Source: an uncultured Candidatus Saccharibacteria bacterium (GTDB taxonomy: Bacteria; Patescibacteriota; Dojkabacteria; J137). From it: a stretch of 64,000 nt of DNA. The notes beneath the pieces were generated by a model. It saw only the letters and a list, made by a program, of their open reading frames with translations, had not been told where the DNA came from and ran no database searches. Made by a program: the position numbers and the translations under genes. Shown one piece after another: positions 607 to 53,100 of this stretch (position 1 is the stretch's first letter; each line of letters opens with the position of its first letter). The DNA is taken from assembly GCA_964607415.1 (NCBI GenBank), contig CAZSKK010000002.1, forward strand, positions 158,380 to 222,379, in the 5' to 3' direction.

Positions 607-1047
607 TTAACGTTTTAGCATTTGTTTACGTATCTCCATCCAAATTTTGCCCATTTCATTTCTACCATTTCCATCAGGTCCGGTCCCCCAAAAACTATCA
701 AATGGATTATCTTCAATAATTTCAGCATCTCCCGATTTTATTAATGCATCACTTACTTCTTTATGTTGCTTGGCCTTTATCGAATTAAGATTCCTCATGA
801 TTTGTACCTTATCCTTTTGGGTTAATTGCTTTTGCAAATGTGAAAAATCATTGGCAACTTTTTTTGCCATAAGAGGACTATTGGCACCTATAATTTTTAA
901 TTTTATTTTTGGGTCATCAAACTTTGCCGCATGGTAAGCATGATCTACAGTTTTATACTCCTCTCCATTAACAATTATCGAATGCGCTGACCAGTTTGAA
1001 AGCATATAATATTCTTTTTCAAAAAAAGTTATCTGTTCTGTTTTCAA
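607..1047 (-). CDS. NADAR-domain protein (YbiA/DUF1768-like N-glycosidase)
   Basis: Motifs EYKTVDHAYHAAKF and FWGTGPDGNGRNEMGKIWMEIR match the NADAR family. Confidence 0.7.
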   Translation of the reverse strand: MKTEQITFFEKEYYMLSNWSAHSIIVNGEEYKTVDHAYHAAKFDDPKIKLKIIGANSPLMAKKVANDFSHLQKQLTQKDKVQIMRNLNSIKAKQHKEVSDALIKSGDAEIIEDNPFDSFWGTGPDGNGRNEMGKIWMEIRKQMLKR

Positions 1048-1146: not shown

Positions 1147-1578
1147 TTAGTAGTTTTTCTCTCTAAAAACTAATATAAAACCATCCGGATCCTTAACCAC
1201 AATCTCTTTTGTCCCCCAAGGAAAATCAGTGATTTCTTTTGCTATTTCAAAATTATTTTTTTCACAAATTTCTAGAACTTCTTCTACTGAATTAACATCT
1301 ATCATTGCTGAAACTTTTGAACTCTTTATTAATTCTCTAAACACTTCCGGTTTAATTGCAATATGATCTTCACCTATTTCCAGCATTGCATTACCAAGAT
1401 TAAAAGTTACCCCTCTATATTTTTCTATTGCTTTAGGAAAATTAAATTTCTTAATAAAATCTTGCGGGCCATATGCAAATTCTTCCTCAAAACCAAATGA
1501 CTTGTAGAATCTATATGACTTTTCAAAGTCTTTTACTTTAATATGTATTCCTAATCTTGATAGTTTTAGTTTTCCCAT
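1147..1578 (-). CDS. VOC/glyoxalase-bleomycin-resistance family protein
   Basis: 143 aa. N-terminal LGIHIKVKDFEKSYRFYKSFGF and C-terminal DPDGFILVF are VOC-fold signatures. Confidence 0.55.
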   Translation of the reverse strand: MGKLKLSRLGIHIKVKDFEKSYRFYKSFGFEEEFAYGPQDFIKKFNFPKAIEKYRGVTFNLGNAMLEIGEDHIAIKPEVFRELIKSSKVSAMIDVNSVEEVLEICEKNNFEIAKEITDFPWGTKEIVVKDPDGFILVFREKNY

Positions 1579-1788
1579 ATAGTTGTAAATTAAAAATATT
1601 TTAGGTTAATTTAGAGCTTTGGATTTCAGACTTCTGGCTTCTGACTTCTTCTAGGCTCTCAGAACTTCAAGGTTTTAATCAGCTTTTTAATTACATACAT
1701 ACTTGCAAACATAATACAGTTTAGTGTAATATAAAGTAAATATGCAGATATACGTATATATGTAAGATTAAGTTGATTGGCCAAGATG

Positions 1789-1848: not shown

Positions 1849-2403
1849 ATGAAAGTATTTTTTACCGCCTCCTACTCAGGAAAGCAAAAGTATCAAAAGT
1901 ACTACGACCTTGTTCTAAAAGCTATTCAATCAACAGGCGCAGATATCATTTCCCCTGAACTTAACAATTATAAAAAGATTTTGACTCAAGTTGAAATGAA
2001 TAGTCTAAAAACAGACAAGGAAATTCATTATGAAGCGATAAGAAAAGGGATTATTTGGGCCGACGTTGTAATAATAGAGATTAGTAATCCCGATTTTCAA
2101 CTAGGATATGAAGCAAACCTTGCCATCCAATCTAAAAAACCAGTTTTATGCCTTTCTACAATCGAAGATTTTAGCTTAAAAATACACCACCGTTTTTTTT
2201 ATGGTGCAAAATATACAAAGTTTAATGTAAAAGACTTTGTGGTTGATTTTATTGTAAAGCACAGAAAAGAATTACTTTCAGAAAGATTTAATTTTTTTAT
2301 TTCAAAATCACAACTTCAACATTTGACAATTCAGTCAGAGAAAAATGGAATTAATATGTCTGAATATCTAAGAAAACTAATAGAAGATGATATGATTAAT
2401 TAG
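1849..2403 (+). CDS. Nucleoside 2-deoxyribosyltransferase-like (NDT/SLOG-type) domain fused to C-terminal ribbon-helix-helix (paralog 1 of 3)
   Basis: KVFFTASYSG...ADVVIIEISNPDFQLGYEANLAIQSKKPVLCL matches the NDT-like core, with a conserved Glu in the GYE motif. The C-terminal FNFFISKSQLQHLTIQSEKNGINMSEYLRKLIEDDM has a strand-helix-turn-helix RHH pattern. Confidence 0.55.
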   Translation: MKVFFTASYSGKQKYQKYYDLVLKAIQSTGADIISPELNNYKKILTQVEMNSLKTDKEIHYEAIRKGIIWADVVIIEISNPDFQLGYEANLAIQSKKPVLCLSTIEDFSLKIHHRFFYGAKYTKFNVKDFVVDFIVKHRKELLSERFNFFISKSQLQHLTIQSEKNGINMSEYLRKLIEDDMIN

Positions 2404-24540: not shown

Positions 24541-26565
24541 ATGACTAATTTAGAATTTTCAACCTATATAACCTTCTTTATAGCTTTTGCTCTACTGGCT
24601 TTAGCTTTCGACTTACTATTTATTGGAAAGTTCCTTTACAAAGTGGTCAAAAAACGACACTTTAAAATTAGCTTCAAAAGCAAAAAATTATGGTTGAAGA
24701 TTTTGGTTTTCCTGTTATTTAACATTGCAATTCCAGGTGCAATTACTTATGTAGCATATCAAAAATACGAAAAGACAACTCCAACAATTACAAAATCAAC
24801 GCCATCAGGTGAAGGAGTTTGGTCCAGTTATTCAAAGCCTTTAGAAGTTGAATTCAATGTGCCTGTAAGCACTGTGAGGCTTTCTCCTAAAATAAATCCT
24901 ACTCTTGCCGGTGAATGGAAATGGGAACCTTACTATGGAACGCATGCACTAACAACTAAGGGTAAGTTCTACCCAAATGAAAGTTTATTCCCTGGGCAAA
25001 GAGTTGTTGTTTACATAACAGGAATCAGGCGAGCAAAGCATAATGAAAATCATGAAGCTGGGTTTGTATTTGATTCAGTTAAACTACCTGAAATTAATGT
25101 CTCAGACCCATTTAATAAATCTAAGGATGTTTCTTTAGAAACAAACATAGATTTGTTTTTAAATAAAAAAGATGAAAACTTACAAAACTGGAAATTTGAA
25201 TTTTCGCCAAAAATCGACTTCGAGGTCAGAACAATAAGCGAAACGCAATTTCAAATAGACCCAGCACTACCGTTTAATCAAAGTGAGAAGTACACACTTT
25301 ATGTTTCAAGACAAGCTAAAAGAGTTAACCTTGAAAACAAAGAGACAATAGAAGAGGATGGATACGAAGTTGTTAATAGGATTGAATTTGAAACACCTAA
25401 AGAGCCGCTTGTTAAAAGTTTTTCTCCAAAAGGTACTGGCGTAAAACAAGATGCTAAGATTAGAATTCGTTTTGAAGTACCAATGATTAGAGAGAACGTG
25501 GAGACATTATTTAAAATCACTCCAAGCGTTGAAGGTACTTTTGGATGGGAGGATGATAGAATCCTTAATTTTACACCCAATACCCTACTTCCAAAGGAAA
25601 CTTCTTATAAAGTTTCATTTCCTGAAGGTCTAGAAAGCCAAGGTGGTGGTGTTTCTGCCAAAGAAATTAGTTTTGAATTTGTAACAATTGGCGCAATACA
25701 ATTGCAATCATCTAGTCCTGCAAATGCTGCAACTAGAGTTAATGAATCTACAGAAATTAAAATAACTTTTGACCAAGAAGTTGATCAAACTTCCGCTCAA
25801 TCAAATTTTACGATATCTCCAAATATTGGAGGTAATTTTAGATGGGAAGGCAATACAATGATTTTTGACCCAAATAACAATTTGAATTTCAGCACAACCT
25901 ATACTGTTTCTCTTCAACCTGGAATTAAGTCGATTTATGGAATTGATAGCAGGGACAAATTTAACTTTAGTTTTACAACCAGATCAAACCAGGTGACTAT
26001 TTCTCTACCTATTTTTTATCAACCTCAGCCTTCATTCTCTTGTAATATTTATGCAACCAGAATGGGACTTGCATGGAAAGGTTACAACCTGGATGCAACA
26101 GCTATTATCGCTGAATTAGGCTATAACGATCAAAATATTAATGGGCAATGGCAAGGAAACCCAAACACACAATATGTTGGAACATATGATGGAAGTTGGG
26201 GATACGGTGTACACTGGAATCCAGTAAAAAGATTATTTGATAACAGAGGCCTAACGACCACCTTAAACGTAGGTTGGAACACGAGAGATCTTGCAAGAAC
26301 AATAGAAAACGGCAATCCCGTTATCATTTGGCGATATAATGGTGTTAGTGCAGATTATAACCTGAATTGGGTTGCGGCTGATGGTACCTATGTAAATGCA
26401 ATTAATGGACAACACGGTGGAGTTATTACAGGGTACAGAGGTACAAGTGACAATCCTACACAATTTCAAATTAATGATCCTTGGTATGGAATAATCTGGA
26501 TGGATGCCGGGGTATTTGATTACTATTGGTCTCGCTTAAATCGAGTTGGGTTGGTAATATATTAG
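24541..26565 (+). CDS. Surface protein: TM anchor, tandem bacterial Ig-like domains and C-terminal C39-like cysteine peptidase domain
   Basis: Repeated Ig-like blocks (NFTISPNIGGNFRWEGNTMIFDP...TYTVSL). The C-terminus has CNIYATRMGLAWKGY...HGGVITGY...NDPWYG, which resembles the Peptidase_C39_2 Cys/His/Asp arrangement. Confidence 0.5.
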   Translation: MTNLEFSTYITFFIAFALLALAFDLLFIGKFLYKVVKKRHFKISFKSKKLWLKILVFLLFNIAIPGAITYVAYQKYEKTTPTITKSTPSGEGVWSSYSKPLEVEFNVPVSTVRLSPKINPTLAGEWKWEPYYGTHALTTKGKFYPNESLFPGQRVVVYITGIRRAKHNENHEAGFVFDSVKLPEINVSDPFNKSKDVSLETNIDLFLNKKDENLQNWKFEFSPKIDFEVRTISETQFQIDPALPFNQSEKYTLYVSRQAKRVNLENKETIEEDGYEVVNRIEFETPKEPLVKSFSPKGTGVKQDAKIRIRFEVPMIRENVETLFKITPSVEGTFGWEDDRILNFTPNTLLPKETSYKVSFPEGLESQGGGVSAKEISFEFVTIGAIQLQSSSPANAATRVNESTEIKITFDQEVDQTSAQSNFTISPNIGGNFRWEGNTMIFDPNNNLNFSTTYTVSLQPGIKSIYGIDSRDKFNFSFTTRSNQVTISLPIFYQPQPSFSCNIYATRMGLAWKGYNLDATAIIAELGYNDQNINGQWQGNPNTQYVGTYDGSWGYGVHWNPVKRLFDNRGLTTTLNVGWNTRDLARTIENGNPVIIWRYNGVSADYNLNWVAADGTYVNAINGQHGGVITGYRGTSDNPTQFQINDPWYGIIWMDAGVFDYYWSRLNRVGLVIY

Positions 26566-26761
26566 AGCATATTAAATAGATTTCCTCTCCCCGAGAATGC
26601 ACGTTGTGCATTCGAGTGCAGCTGATTAGCTCCATTCGACAGCATAATATGCTGTCTCAGGATTAAGGTGAGGGTTTATACCGAGTTGGTGCATAACCTC
26701 ACCCTCCCCTCTCCTAATAGGAGAGGGATTTTGGAGATAATCTTAAATCATTTTTTTAATC

Positions 26762-50101: not shown

Positions 50102-50148
50102 CATTGTATACAATTTAGCTAAAATATACATAATTACAAATTATTTTT

Positions 50149-50538
50149 ATGTATAAAACTAAAGAAGGCAAAGTTTGCGCATCTCTAACAGAGGTAAAAA
50201 ACAGAACTGGTGATATTTTTGACATGGTAGATGAATTTGGCGAAGTAATTTTAACTTCTTACAATAAGGAAAGGTATAAAATTACCAAAATTGATCTTTC
50301 CTCTACACTTGAAATTAAGAGCGAGAGTAAGACTAAGGATGAAAACAGGATCCAAGCCGAAAACACTCCTAAGTACGAACCTACAACTTTTGTAGACAAT
50401 AGCAAAGAAGAAATAAGCTCAGAAGATACCAACGAAATCAATGACGAAAACCTGATCTCTAATGATTTTAAGCTTTGGGATAGAGAAAACAAGCTTGAAA
50501 AAGAGTTTGCTGAAAACGCAAAAAAAGCTCTGCAGTAA
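50149..50538 (+). CDS. Phd/YefM-like antitoxin with long acidic C-terminal tail
   Basis: N-terminal SLTEVKNRTGDIFDMVDEFGEVILTSYNKERYKI is the Phd/YefM fold pattern. Positioned 34 bp upstream of the PIN gene. Confidence 0.4.
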   Translation: MYKTKEGKVCASLTEVKNRTGDIFDMVDEFGEVILTSYNKERYKITKIDLSSTLEIKSESKTKDENRIQAENTPKYEPTTFVDNSKEEISSEDTNEINDENLISNDFKLWDRENKLEKEFAENAKKALQ

Positions 50539-50954: not shown

Positions 50955-51028
50955 TTCGGAGAGACAGGACTCGAACCTGCAACCCCACGCTCCCAAAGCG
51001 TGTATTCTAGCCAATTGAACTACTCTCC
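50955..51028 (-). tRNA. tRNA-Pro (anticodon TGG)
   Basis: Reverse complement folds as CGGAGAG-TA-GTTC-AATTGGCTA-GAAT-A-CACGC-TTTGGGA-GCGTG-GGGTT-GCAGG-TTCGAGT-CCTGT-CTCTCCG-A. C1:G72 is typical of bacterial tRNA-Pro. Confidence 0.75.
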
Positions 51029-51553
51029 GCTTAGTTGTTCGAAAAGATTTTACCACATAAATACCTATTCTTGTATATATCTTTTAGGTTCAACACTTAC
51101 AAAGATTGCATAAATCATTTTTTTTGGCATTCTTGCAATCATAATTATTTGAATAGCTTGACTAAACTGTGAAACATTTCTCATTATTATATTTAGACTA
51201 AGAAATCCTATAAATAATACGTGATTTTGTTGTTTCCTTTAAACTTATTCCAGAGGCATGACTTGGACTGCCAGCTACCATGCGCTTTGGAGCTAACCCC
51301 TTCTTATCATTTGTCCGAATCGCTGCCAGTAAGTAATCGGACGCAGTTAGTTCTAATGTAACCAACAATATACCTTCTTTTAATCTCAAGCTTTTTAAAC
51401 AAATTGCCACTTCCCCACTTTGAAAATTTAGGCGCCTAAAATCTCAATCCAAAGGCTATCAAGTATAACTAACATTTGCAAGAAAAGGTTTGAGATTAAA
51501 AGCGACAATTTATCATAAAGTATTAAAAATAAGCACAGGCCGAAAATTACTAC

Positions 51554-51583
51554 TTGCGCATTGTATGCATACATGTGTATAAT
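51554..51583 (+). promoter_or_regulatory. Sigma-70-like promoter (TTGCGC-18-TATAAT) with embedded 12-bp perfect palindrome TGTATGCATACA
   Basis: The -35 and -10 hexamers are 18 bp apart. The palindrome at 51562-51573 lies in the spacer, about 40 bp upstream of the NDT-like-RHH paralog 2 start. Confidence 0.4.
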
Positions 51584-51615
51584 ATACACAATTAAGTTAT
51601 TATACCCAACTACAA

Positions 51616-52200
51616 ATGAAAATACTTTACATTTGCTCTATTGACCAATTTAAAACAAACAGAGAAAGGTACAACCTTATTCGCAGAATATTGCTAGCCA
51701 CCGGGCACGAGCTTACCTTTGATTGGCTTACAAAAATAGAAAATAACCTTGGGCAGTACTCTAAACTAAACCTTTCCAGACTTTTCGACAGCACTATAGC
51801 AGCCATAAAAGAATCTGATGCAGTTGTCATAGAAGGCACTATACCAAGCTTTGAGGCAGGATTCATTGCTAATTTCGCAGCTAAAAATCGTAAGTCAGTG
51901 TTGATTTTAATAGAAGGAAATGAAGGGGTTGATTTTTCAAGCTTAAATATAATTGAAACCGAACACATTTTTATAAAAAACTATAACAAGGAAAATATTG
52001 AAAACCTACTTTCAGAATTTTTAAAAGATAACGCTGGAGAACCTTCTTATAGATTTAATATAATCCTTGGCAGAAGGCAGAAGAACTACTTAAACTGGGC
52101 TGATAGATTTTACAGAAAAAGCAAATCGGAACTGATCAGGGAGATAATTGATGATAAGGCAAATAATGACGTGAACTATCTACGTATTGGAGGTAAATGA
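51616..52200 (+). CDS. NDT-like (SLOG-type) domain fused to C-terminal ribbon-helix-helix (paralog 2 of 3)
   Basis: KILYICSID...DAVVIEGTIPSFEAGFIANFAAKNRKSVLIL is the NDT-like core. C-terminal RFNIILGRRQKNYLNWADRFYRKSKSELIREIIDD is the RHH. Confidence 0.5.
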   Translation: MKILYICSIDQFKTNRERYNLIRRILLATGHELTFDWLTKIENNLGQYSKLNLSRLFDSTIAAIKESDAVVIEGTIPSFEAGFIANFAAKNRKSVLILIEGNEGVDFSSLNIIETEHIFIKNYNKENIENLLSEFLKDNAGEPSYRFNIILGRRQKNYLNWADRFYRKSKSELIREIIDDKANNDVNYLRIGGK

Positions 52201-52425: not shown

Positions 52426-53100
52426 TCACTTCCTGTTCTCAGCTTTCCACTTTTTAACTTCTGCATGATCACCCGAAAGAAGAATTTCAGGTATTCCCCA
52501 CTCTTCTCCTTCATCCGTTTTGAATACTGCAGGTCTTGTGTATTGGGGATATTCAAAAAGTGTATGATCTTCATTAAAACTAGTTTCTTCTATTAATGAT
52601 TCTTCGTTTCCAAGAACACCTGGAATTAATCTTGTGATTGAATCTACAAGTATCATGGAAGCTAGTTCGCCTCCTGACAAAATATATTCCCCTACGCTAA
52701 CTTCACTATCAATCAAGTGCTCTACAACTCTATGATCTATCCCTTCGTATCTACCACATATGATTACTATACGTTCTAAATCCTGTGATGAATTTTGAGC
52801 AATAGTTTGATTCCACTTAATACCTTTAGCACTAGTTAAATACACTTTTGTTTTGGGATCTCTGCTTGGATAAACTCCTAATTCTTTTAGAGCTTTATAA
52901 ATAGGCTCAATCTTAATCAACATCCCAGCTCCACCACTGAAAGGCTTATCATCAACTGTACGTCTTTTGTCTGTTGTCCACCTTCTTAAATCATGAATAT
53001 GGATGTCAATCTTTTTTGCATCAGCGGCTCTTTTAATAATACTATGGTTTAAGTATTCAAAAGAATCTGGAAGTACTGTTATAATATCAAACTTAATCAT
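52426..53100 (-). CDS. trmD: tRNA (guanine37-N1)-methyltransferase
   Basis: MIKFDIITVLPDSFEYLNHSIIKRA plus the SPOUT knot region. Confidence 0.85.
   Translation of the reverse strand: MIKFDIITVLPDSFEYLNHSIIKRAADAKKIDIHIHDLRRWTTDKRRTVDDKPFSGGAGMLIKIEPIYKALKELGVYPSRDPKTKVYLTSAKGIKWNQTIAQNSSQDLERIVIICGRYEGIDHRVVEHLIDSEVSVGEYILSGGELASMILVDSITRLIPGVLGNEESLIEETSFNEDHTLFEYPQYTRPAVFKTDEGEEWGIPEILLSGDHAEVKKWKAENRK

What the first reader, a model, noticed from the sequence alone, without database searches (positions are those of the whole stretch)
51554..52200. NDT-like-RHH paralog 2 with a perfect 12-bp palindrome inside its promoter spacer
A promoter-like element TTGCGC-18 bp-TATAAT lies 30-60 bp upstream of the ATG. 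It contains TGTATGCATACA at 51562-51573 between the -35 and -10 hexamers. This is the classic position for a repressor operator, and the gene product carries an RHH. The palindrome resembles the ATATACGTATAT upstream of paralog 1, sharing a TAT-RYRY-ATA core. This suggests a shared recognition logic.
Basis: seen in the sequence. Interest (0 to 1): 0.55.

Follow-up and report, generated by a model that had tools for sequence, protein, structure and literature searches.

The report
Self-repressor gene with conserved promoter palindrome

Summary
The sequence facts are correct. TTGCGC (51554-59), an 18-bp spacer, TATAAT (51578-83) and the perfect palindrome TGTATGCATACA (51562-73) lie upstream of a 194-aa gene (51616-52200). 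That 12-mer is not special. The window holds 30 perfect 12-bp palindromes against about 29 expected. In the closest relative (85% identical protein) 5 of its 12 bases differ, while the next 30 bp are identical.

The conserved element is the adjacent palindrome TGTGTATA-A-TATACACA (51574-90), which overlaps the -10. Its 15-bp core recurs with at most 2 mismatches 37-60 bp upstream of the orthologue in 10 of 11 loci, and nowhere else in 111.6 kb. Extra ATACA(C) half-sites accompany it.

Paralog 1's ATATACGTATAT is part of a family-wide 16-bp operator, two ATAYRTAT boxes, seen in about 44 of 48 genomes.

Most likely this is a negative autoregulator. An operator in the promoter is supported, but the site was mis-assigned. 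No paper on this fused family was found.

The parts
51554..51559 (+). -35-like hexamer TTGCGC (3/6 match to TTGACA)
   Evidence: Read. A TTG at the same distance (18-bp spacer) is present in L005, L006, L007 and L009. It is too weak to be listed by the consensus scan.
51562..51573 (.). It is lineage-specific and at most an auxiliary half-site pair (TGTAT 51562-66 / ATACA 51569-73).
   Evidence: Not conserved in L005-L010 or L060-L063. 12-bp palindromes occur at chance frequency in the window.
51564..51569 (.). TATGCA, sitting at the position of the conserved upstream half-site block TATACA (one mismatch)
   Evidence: The anchored ungapped alignment of 10 loci gives the consensus ...taTACA.AatTGTGTATAATaTACACA.
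51574..51590 (.). Conserved 17-bp palindrome TGTGTATA-A-TATACACA (15-bp core 51575-51589). This is the proposed primary operator; it overlaps the -10.
   Evidence: Inverted repeat I5. The 15-mer is exact in the window, L005, L006, L060 and L063, and has 1-2 mismatches in L007, L008, L009, L010 and L061. It always lies 37-60 bp upstream of the gene and occurs nowhere else in 111.6 kb. The non-promoter positions TACAC are as conserved as TATAAT.
51578..51583 (+). -10 hexamer TATAAT (6/6), embedded in the palindrome
   Evidence: Conserved in 8 of 10 aligned loci.
51616..52200 (+). CDS of 194 aa (paralog 2), monocistronic and convergent with trmD (52426-53100, minus strand)
   Evidence: ORF. An identical protein, P0001, occurs on 9 contigs. 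The start is confirmed by the alignment of 14 orthologues. trmD is the neighbour in 8 of the 10 related loci (L005-L010, L060-L063).
51616..52038 (+). N-terminal DNPH1/Rcl-like (N-deoxyribosyltransferase superfamily) domain, residues 1-141. Ile84 occupies the position of the catalytic Glu nucleophile, while the Pro-Ser of the Rcl PSLGVGYE motif is kept (P77-S78).
52045..52167 (+). C-terminal ribbon-helix-helix-like domain, residues 144-184. The putative DNA-reading strand R146-F-N-I-I-L151 is at 52051-52068.
   Evidence: This is the most conserved part of the family: RFNI(I/L)L...SKSE(L/I)IR. The model places helices at 153-166 and 170-184. Pfam RHH_1 hits on orthologue C-termini are below threshold (E 0.003-0.12). 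The profile gives weak CopG/NikR matches (E about 0.5). Paralog-1 family members hit RHH_3 and NikA-like, and P0067 just reaches the cutoff.
1750..1765 (.). Paralog-1 operator: two tandem 8-bp boxes, ATACGTAT-ATATGTAA (family consensus ATAYRTAT-ATAYRTAT).
   Evidence: The 16-mer fits with at most 1 mismatch in 30 of 48 loci and at most 2 in 44 of 48. ATATACATAT occurs in the upstream 200 nt of 34 of 48 loci and in 0 of 48 flanks. All hits with at most 1 mismatch in 217 kb lie within 150 bp upstream of the gene.
1849..2403 (+). Paralog 1 CDS (184 aa), a member of a large Patescibacteria-wide family. It keeps the Glu at the Rcl nucleophile position (LGYE in the window protein, GHE in the family consensus).
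1147..1578 (-). VOC/glyoxalase-family gene, divergent from paralog 1. This is a conserved gene pair and a likely co-regulated target in the paralog-1 family.
   Evidence: Pfam Glyoxalase, E 6.7e-11. A homologue lies divergently upstream in 36 of 49 loci. In many loci a second operator copy, CATATGTATAT, overlaps its start codon.

Best explanation
The gene at 51616-52200 encodes a one-component transcriptional autorepressor. A C-terminal ribbon-helix-helix dimer reads GTGTAT/ATACAC half-sites. The main operator is the dyad GTGTATA-A-TATACAC at 51575-51589, which contains the -10 TATAAT. Additional ATACA(C)-like half-sites lie one to two helical turns upstream, at 51564-51573, inside the spacer. 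Occupancy by two or more RHH dimers, held together by the dimerising or oligomerising DNPH1/Rcl-like N-domain, would block RNA polymerase at the -10 and so limit the gene's own transcription. The N-domain has lost the catalytic Glu (Ile84). It is therefore inferred to act as a ligand-binding and/or oligomerisation module that modulates DNA binding, possibly for a nucleoside 5'-monophosphate, rather than as an enzyme. What is shown: the sequence, the paralogy, the fold, the loss of the nucleophile, and the conservation, position and specificity of the operator. What is inferred: that the protein binds this DNA, that binding represses, and that a ligand exists.
For: 1) The 15-mer GTGTATAATATACAC (at most 2 mismatches) is found at -37 to -60 of the orthologue in 10 of 11 loci and nowhere else in 111.6 kb on either strand.
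2) Flanking intergenic DNA is otherwise unalignable. Window versus L005 aligns only over the tRNA and about 80 bp of promoter. Proteins only 40-47% identical still carry the exact 15-mer (L006, L060, L063).
3) The positions outside the -10 hexamer (GTG and TACAC) are 9-10/10 conserved, as strongly as TATAAT.
4) In L060 and L061 the palindrome sits 47 bp from the ATG, while a separate TATAAT lies 6 nt before the ATG. It is therefore conserved independently of being the proximal -10.
5) Half-sites ATACAC/ATACAT recur at 11- and 19-20-bp spacings in L060, L061 and L062, and even in the 30%-identical L184.
6) The motif travels with the gene while the upstream neighbours vary: PIN, ATP synthase epsilon, patatin, tRNA, NUDIX.
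7) The RHH segment, including RFNI(I/L)L, is the most conserved part of the protein, matching the conserved operator.
8) The sister family shows the same design with its own operator in about 44 of 48 genomes.
9) N-domain fold and homology come. Ile84 aligns with the Rcl nucleophile Glu.
Against: There is no binding or expression data.
- The RHH assignment for paralog 2 itself is below the Pfam threshold, and the strand is not formed in the monomer model.
- Part of the conservation is explained by the -10 hexamer.
- No second operator was found in the 64-kb window, so a regulon is unknown, and a regulator that controls only itself would need another role for its N-domain.
- L062 lacks the palindrome and has three direct ATACACAA repeats instead.
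- Within one genome, 17-bp palindromes of this form are not over-represented: 4 against 2.4 expected.
- The same 17-mer occurs more than 120 times in metagenomes with no homologue nearby, so the motif is not unique to this family.
- The loci are phylogenetically related, so the counts are not fully independent.
Confidence: 0.7

Rival explanations
1. One reading: the 12-bp palindrome TGTATGCATACA between -35 and -10 is the operator recognised by the RHH protein.
For: It is a perfect palindrome at 51562-51573 inside the spacer. It consists of the same pentamers, TGTAT/ATACA, as the conserved operator. Some relatives also carry a fourth, upstream TGTAT-like half-site, giving two tandem dyads (L006, L007, L008).
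Against: 5 of 12 bases differ in L005 (85% identical protein), whereas the next 30 bp are identical. No other locus has a dyad with this spacing; the upstream arm spacings are 2, 3 or 5 bp. 12-bp palindromes occur at chance frequency (30 against 29).
Confidence: 0.15
2. The conserved block is only a strong core promoter (-10 plus discriminator) and its symmetry is incidental. The protein does not autoregulate.
For: The palindrome contains a perfect TATAAT. AT-rich palindromes are common in this genome. The identical 17-mer appears in many unrelated metagenomic contexts, often as a -10.
Against: The TACAC and GTG flanks are as conserved as the hexamer. The dyad is retained in L060 and L061, where a different TATAAT abuts the ATG. 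Extra ATACAC half-sites occur at helical-repeat spacings. The sister family shows the same design with a different motif that is not a -10 consensus.
Confidence: 0.1
3. The operator is bound by a different regulator, for example the paralog-1 protein through cross-regulation, or an unrelated global factor.
For: Both paralog families share R-F-N in the putative recognition strand, and both operators are built from GTATA/TATAC.
Against: The paralog-1 operator, ATAYRTAT x2, has a different arrangement and does not occur at the paralog-2 promoter. The paralog-2 motif does not occur at paralog-1 promoters. The motif co-travels with the paralog-2 gene across changing neighbourhoods.
Confidence: 0.05

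Closest known systems
NikR (nickel-responsive RHH repressor)
   Same: It is a one-component regulator that combines an RHH DNA-binding domain with a ligand-binding, oligomerising domain, and it binds a dyad operator overlapping the core promoter (established knowledge). The family profile gives weak RHH-region matches to NikR and CopG (E about 0.5).
   Different: In NikR the RHH is N-terminal and the sensor is an ACT-like metal-binding domain. Here the RHH is C-terminal and the partner domain is DNPH1/Rcl-like. No metal-binding motif is evident. Homology outside the RHH is absent.
MetJ / Arc / CopG-type RHH repressors
   Same: These are small RHH dimers that bind cooperatively to adjacent short boxes, with negative autoregulation in Arc and CopG. 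The paralog-1 operator, two tandem 8-bp near-palindromic boxes ATAYRTAT, has the same layout as tandem MetJ met-boxes. Paralog 2 has an R-x-N-x-I strand pattern like Arc's Q-x-N-x-R; this comparison rests on my own knowledge.
   Different: Those proteins lack a large fused domain. MetJ uses SAM bound to the RHH itself. The operator sequences are unrelated.
DNPH1 / Rcl (2'-deoxynucleoside 5'-phosphate N-hydrolase) and MilB
   Same: The N-domain is homologous and has the same fold. The P-S of the PSLGVGYE motif is kept in paralog 2. I recall that this serine contacts the 5'-phosphate in Rcl, but I did not check it against a structure or paper here. The Glu nucleophile is kept in the paralog-1 family.
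   Different: Paralog 2 has Ile at the nucleophile position, so hydrolase activity is unlikely. No known DNPH1, NDT or MilB protein carries a DNA-binding domain, and no solved structure covers both domains.
PutA / trigger enzymes
   Same: An RHH is fused to an enzyme-type domain, so that transcription is tied to a metabolite. This is a possible analogy for the paralog-1 family, which keeps the catalytic Glu.
   Different: PutA is a large multi-domain flavoenzyme with an N-terminal RHH. There is no homology in the enzyme part.

Membership tests
Ribbon-helix-helix (MetJ/Arc/CopG) superfamily | Significant match to an RHH profile | tested here: inconclusive
   Paralog 2 has no Pfam RHH hit. C-termini of its orthologues hit RHH_1 at E 0.003-0.12, below the 20.5-bit cutoff. 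Paralog 1 hits RHH_3 at E 0.001 (19.4 against 21.6 bits). Family member P0067 hits NikA-like at 27.1 bits against a cutoff of 27. The profile matches CopG and NikR at E about 0.5.
Ribbon-helix-helix (MetJ/Arc/CopG) superfamily | Strand, helix A, turn, helix B topology of about 40 residues, with alternating polar residues in the strand | tested here: met
   The invariant strand segment is RFNI(I/L)L (146-151). Helices are predicted at 153-166 and 170-184, joined by a K-S-K-S turn. The strand itself is not assigned in the monomer model, as expected for a strand that pairs only in the dimer.
Ribbon-helix-helix (MetJ/Arc/CopG) superfamily | Dimer that binds repeated or dyad-symmetric DNA sites | not testable with these tools
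   Only indirect evidence: conserved dyad and repeat half-sites at the family's own promoters.
N-deoxyribosyltransferase superfamily, DNPH1/Rcl branch | NDT/Rcl fold and profile-level homology | tested here: met
N-deoxyribosyltransferase superfamily, DNPH1/Rcl branch | Catalytic Glu nucleophile (G-Y-E in Rcl) | tested here: not met
   In paralog 2, Ile84 aligns with the Glu, and this column is variable across its family. The Glu is present in the paralog-1 family (GHE, nearly invariant). Paralog 2 should therefore not be filed as a DNPH1/NDT enzyme.
Autoregulated repressor with promoter-overlapping operator | Conserved dyad or repeat element overlapping the core promoter of the regulator's own gene | tested here: met
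   paralog 2 family; paralog 1 family.
Autoregulated repressor with promoter-overlapping operator | Protein binds that element and lowers transcription | not testable with these tools
   Needs EMSA or footprinting and a reporter assay.

The most novel reading that the evidence does not exclude
These genes may represent a large, uncharacterised, mostly Patescibacteria (CPR) family of one-component regulators. At least 187 clusters at 50% identity match the family profile at E <= 1e-30 (1285 at E <= 1e-10), and almost all of the 150 best listed span both domains. In this family a DNPH1/Rcl-type (deoxy)nucleotide-binding or -hydrolysing domain would gate a C-terminal RHH, coupling (modified) nucleoside-monophosphate pools to transcription in organisms that live on salvaged nucleotides. 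The paralog-1 type would be a trigger enzyme, since it keeps the catalytic Glu and controls itself plus a divergent VOC gene. The paralog-2 type would be a catalytically dead sensor derived from it.
Probability: 0.3. Interest if true: 0.6.

Novelty: new variant of a known kind. Interest (0 to 1): 0.4.

Why it matters
Transcriptional regulation in Patescibacteria/CPR is, to my knowledge, almost unstudied. This analysis gives two clean, testable regulator-operator pairs from comparative genomics alone. Paralog 2 pairs with GTGTATA-A-TATACAC, and paralog 1 pairs with two ATAYRTAT boxes. The fused architecture, DNPH1/Rcl-like domain plus RHH, turned up in none of the papers found by the full-text searches run here. 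If the N-domain senses nucleotides, the family would link nucleotide salvage to gene control in these reduced-genome bacteria. For the finding as written, the practical point is a correction. The operator to mutate or footprint is 51574-51590 plus the ATACA half-sites, not the 12-bp palindrome.

Tried and rejected
- The search for related loci with the paralog-2 alignment in metagenome contigs: 369 pattern matches, none confirmed.
tblastn found no NDT-RHH homologue near any of them. This says nothing about specificity and shows the 17-mer is not unique to this family.
- Within-window statistics for palindromes (6+0, 7+1, 8+1, 8+0 arms) show no excess. The evidence therefore rests on cross-species conservation, not on enrichment within the window.
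- NCBIfam and PADLOC gave nothing meaningful, so a defence-system reading was dropped.
- I checked for a pseudogene remnant of the NTP_transf_6 gene that L005 carries upstream. None was found.
- Rfam at gathering threshold found only the two tRNAs. An RNA-level role for the palindrome was rejected because it lies at or upstream of the predicted start site.
- Literature searches for NDT or DNPH1 together with RHH, and for Patescibacteria RHH regulators, found nothing relevant.
- The afdb50 fold library was unavailable.
- The shared 8-mer ATTAAGTT downstream of both operators in the window was judged probably chance. It is not conserved beyond L005.

Full report
**1. Observation.**
The region reads ...ctacTTGCGCatTGTATGCATACAtgtgTATAATatacacaatt....
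- TTGCGC lies at 51554-59, the spacer is 18 bp, and TATAAT lies at 51578-83.
- TGTATGCATACA at 51562-73 is a perfect palindrome, and the ATG of a 194-aa ORF is at 51616.
- ATATACGTATAT is at 1748-59, 90 bp upstream of a 184-aa ORF at 1849-2403.
- The two proteins align over their full length at 26% identity, E 1e-12, so they are real paralogs.

The palindrome itself is not statistically remarkable. The 33%-GC window contains 30 perfect 12-bp palindromes against 29.0 +/- 5.7 in Markov-1 simulations. The -35 matches the consensus at only 3 of 6 positions and is not picked up by the consensus scan.

**2. What is conserved.**
The protein has few close relatives: 14 in two searches of 5.8 billion proteins. 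I fetched 11 loci beyond the window's own lineage: L005-L010, L060-L063 and L184.

In L005 (85% identical protein, syntenic) the 12-mer is replaced by TAAATACATAAT. That is 5 differences and no symmetry, whereas the following 30 bp, TGTGTATAATATACACAATTAAGTTATTAT, are identical. It contains the -10 (I5).

Its 15-bp core GTGTATAATATACAC behaves as follows across the window plus L005-L010 and L060-L063 (L184 was examined separately).
- It is exact in the window, L005, L006, L060 and L063, although the last three proteins are only 40-45% identical.
- It has 1-2 mismatches in L007, L008, L009, L010 and L061.
- It always lies 37-60 bp upstream of the gene.
- No other match with at most 2 mismatches exists anywhere in the 111.6 kb examined, on either strand.

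An ungapped alignment anchored on the dyad gives the consensus TG.gtA.t.taTACA.AatTGTGTATAATaTACACA. Three points follow.
- The flanks GTG and TACAC have no role in sigma-70 recognition, yet they are 9-10/10 conserved, as strongly as TATAAT.
- A further half-site block, TATACA, lies 11 bp upstream.

Other loci show the same half-sites in different layouts.
- In L060 and L061 the dyad is 47 bp from the ATG. A separate TATAAT (TTGACT-17-TGgTATAAT in L060) lies 6 nt before the ATG, with an ATACAC/ATACAT half-site in its spacer.
- L062 has three direct ATACACAA repeats spaced 11 and 20 bp.
- L184, a 30%-identical member, has TACACAC...TTGTAATATACACAC in a 26-bp gap next to a divergent NUDIX gene.

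The motif travels with the gene while the upstream neighbours change. Apart from the tRNA and about 80 bp of promoter, the window and L005 intergenic DNA cannot be aligned. This is a classical phylogenetic footprint of an operator.

**3. The protein.**
An AlphaFold2 model built on a 51-sequence alignment has pLDDT 88.6.
- The Foldseek top 50 hits are all DNPH1/Rcl, and none covers the C-terminus.
- The family profile hits Rcl at E 5e-13. The paralog-2 subfamily alone gives hhalign probability 96.3%, E 1.8e-9.
- In that alignment IPSFEAGFI pairs with Rcl QPSLGVGYE. The Pro-Ser is kept, but the Glu nucleophile is Ile84, and the column is variable in the subfamily.
- The paralog-1 family keeps the Glu (GHE) but not the Pro-Ser.

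The C-terminal 45 residues are the most conserved part, RFNI(I/L)LERKQKNYLDWADRFY.xSKSE(L/I)IR, and they have the strand-helix-turn-helix pattern of RHH proteins. Profile support is sub-threshold for paralog 2. It is borderline or just passing for paralog-1 relatives (RHH_3 at E 1e-3; NikA-like 27.1 bits against a cutoff of 27). Both families share R-F-N in the strand.

**4. Paralog 1 and the 'shared logic'.**
Paralog 1 belongs to a large family: 309 hits and 49 genome loci from Dojkabacteria, WWE3, Microgenomates and others.
- ATATACATAT occurs in the 200 nt upstream of 34 of 48 genes and in none of the flanks.
- All matches to ATATACRTATAT with at most 1 mismatch in 217 kb lie within 150 bp upstream of the gene.
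- The element is best described as two tandem 8-bp boxes, ATAYRTAT-ATAYRTAT. It fits with at most 2 mismatches in 44 of 48 loci. It usually starts at -14, so that its last AT is the AT of the start codon.
- A second copy often overlaps the start of a divergent VOC/glyoxalase gene, which is conserved in 36 of 49 loci.

The window's ATACGTAT-ATATGTAA (1750-65) is an instance of this element, unusually 99 bp from the ATG.

Both operator types are built from GTATA/TATAC. Paralog 1 reads TATAC|GTATA and paralog 2 reads GTATA-A-TATAC. Together with the shared R-x-N strand, this gives modest support to related half-site recognition.

**5. Mechanism (inferred).**
RHH dimers bind the GTGTAT and ATACAC arms and the upstream ATACA-type half-sites. 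The DNPH1-like domain provides the dimer-dimer contacts; from my own knowledge, Rcl is a dimer and NDTs are hexamers. Bound protein covers the -10 and represses the monocistronic gene, which is convergent with trmD. A small-molecule ligand of the catalytically dead pocket may tune binding. No other site exists in the 64-kb window, so other targets, if any, lie elsewhere.

**6. Rivals.**
- The 12-mer as operator: about 0.15.
- Promoter only, with no repressor: about 0.1.
- A foreign regulator or cross-regulation by paralog 1: about 0.05.

The arguments are in the rival section.

**7. Comparison and novelty.**
In function it resembles NikR-type one-component RHH repressors, or MetJ/Arc/CopG. The N-domain is a DNPH1/Rcl homologue that fails the catalytic-residue test, so paralog 2 is not a DNPH1 enzyme. 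The exhaustive profile search finds 187 50%-identity clusters at E <= 1e-30, and almost all of the 150 best listed span both domains. No paper describing the fusion was found. I rate it a new variant of a known kind.

**8. Verdict.**
- Interest is 0.4. The result is solid and testable with a mildly unusual architecture, but the regulatory logic is conventional.

Noticed in passing
window 26585-26735 (+): A GC-richer, strongly structured 150-nt intergenic element lies downstream of the 674-aa gene (24541-26565). It has three to four hairpins, including two 17-bp palindromes at 26639 and 26709, and the last hairpin is followed by UUUU. MFE is -68.1 kcal/mol, z = -7.6 against shuffles. There is no Rfam family at gathering threshold. 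It could be an unknown small RNA or a compound terminator.
   Followed up: partly
window 50103-50114: The perfect palindrome ATTGTATACAAT lies 35 bp upstream of a 129-aa gene (50149-50538). That gene is followed by a PIN-domain gene (50573-47), and from its N-terminal sequence I judge it Phd/YefM-like, though I ran no profile search on it. This looks like a toxin-antitoxin operator candidate.
   Followed up: no
window 1147-1578 (-) and L011-L058: A VOC/glyoxalase-family gene is divergently paired with the paralog-1-type regulator in 36 of 49 genomes. An operator copy often overlaps its start codon. In the window this copy is degenerate (CATATAGTTGTA).
   Followed up: partly
L012, L053 and about 20 other paralog-1 loci; L060-L062, L184: In the paralog-1 loci the operator ends in the AT of the ATG. 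In L060-L062 and L184 a -10-like TATAAT, TAAAAT or TAATAT lies 6 nt before the ATG. Both arrangements suggest leaderless mRNAs for these regulators in many Patescibacteria.
   Followed up: no
window 51030-51550: About 520 bp with no convincing ORF lie between tRNA-Pro (50956-51029, minus strand) and the promoter. The syntenic L005 carries an NTP_transf_6 gene there, but no remnant is detectable in the window. The region contains a 14-bp palindrome, TTTAGGCGCCTAAA, at 51427-51440.
   Followed up: partly
L184 1935-2500: The most divergent paralog-2-type member (P0133) is divergently paired with a NUDIX hydrolase gene across a 26-bp gap made almost entirely of TACACAC half-sites. This is a single hint of a link to nucleotide metabolism.
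   Followed up: no
L064, L105, L116, L145, L151, L159, L177 (metagenome contigs): The same 17-mer palindrome recurs in an unrelated promoter that is conserved among these seven contigs: TTGACAagtgtgtatatagTGTGTATAATATACACAtagaaaggag..ATG (with TTTACA or TTGCAA in some). No NDT-RHH gene is nearby. It is presumably an operator of some other regulator.
   Followed up: no
window 607-1047 (-): The 146-aa ORF next to the VOC gene looks like a NADAR/YbiA-type domain. I judged this from its sequence and did not test it. A homologue is adjacent only in L012.
   Followed up: no
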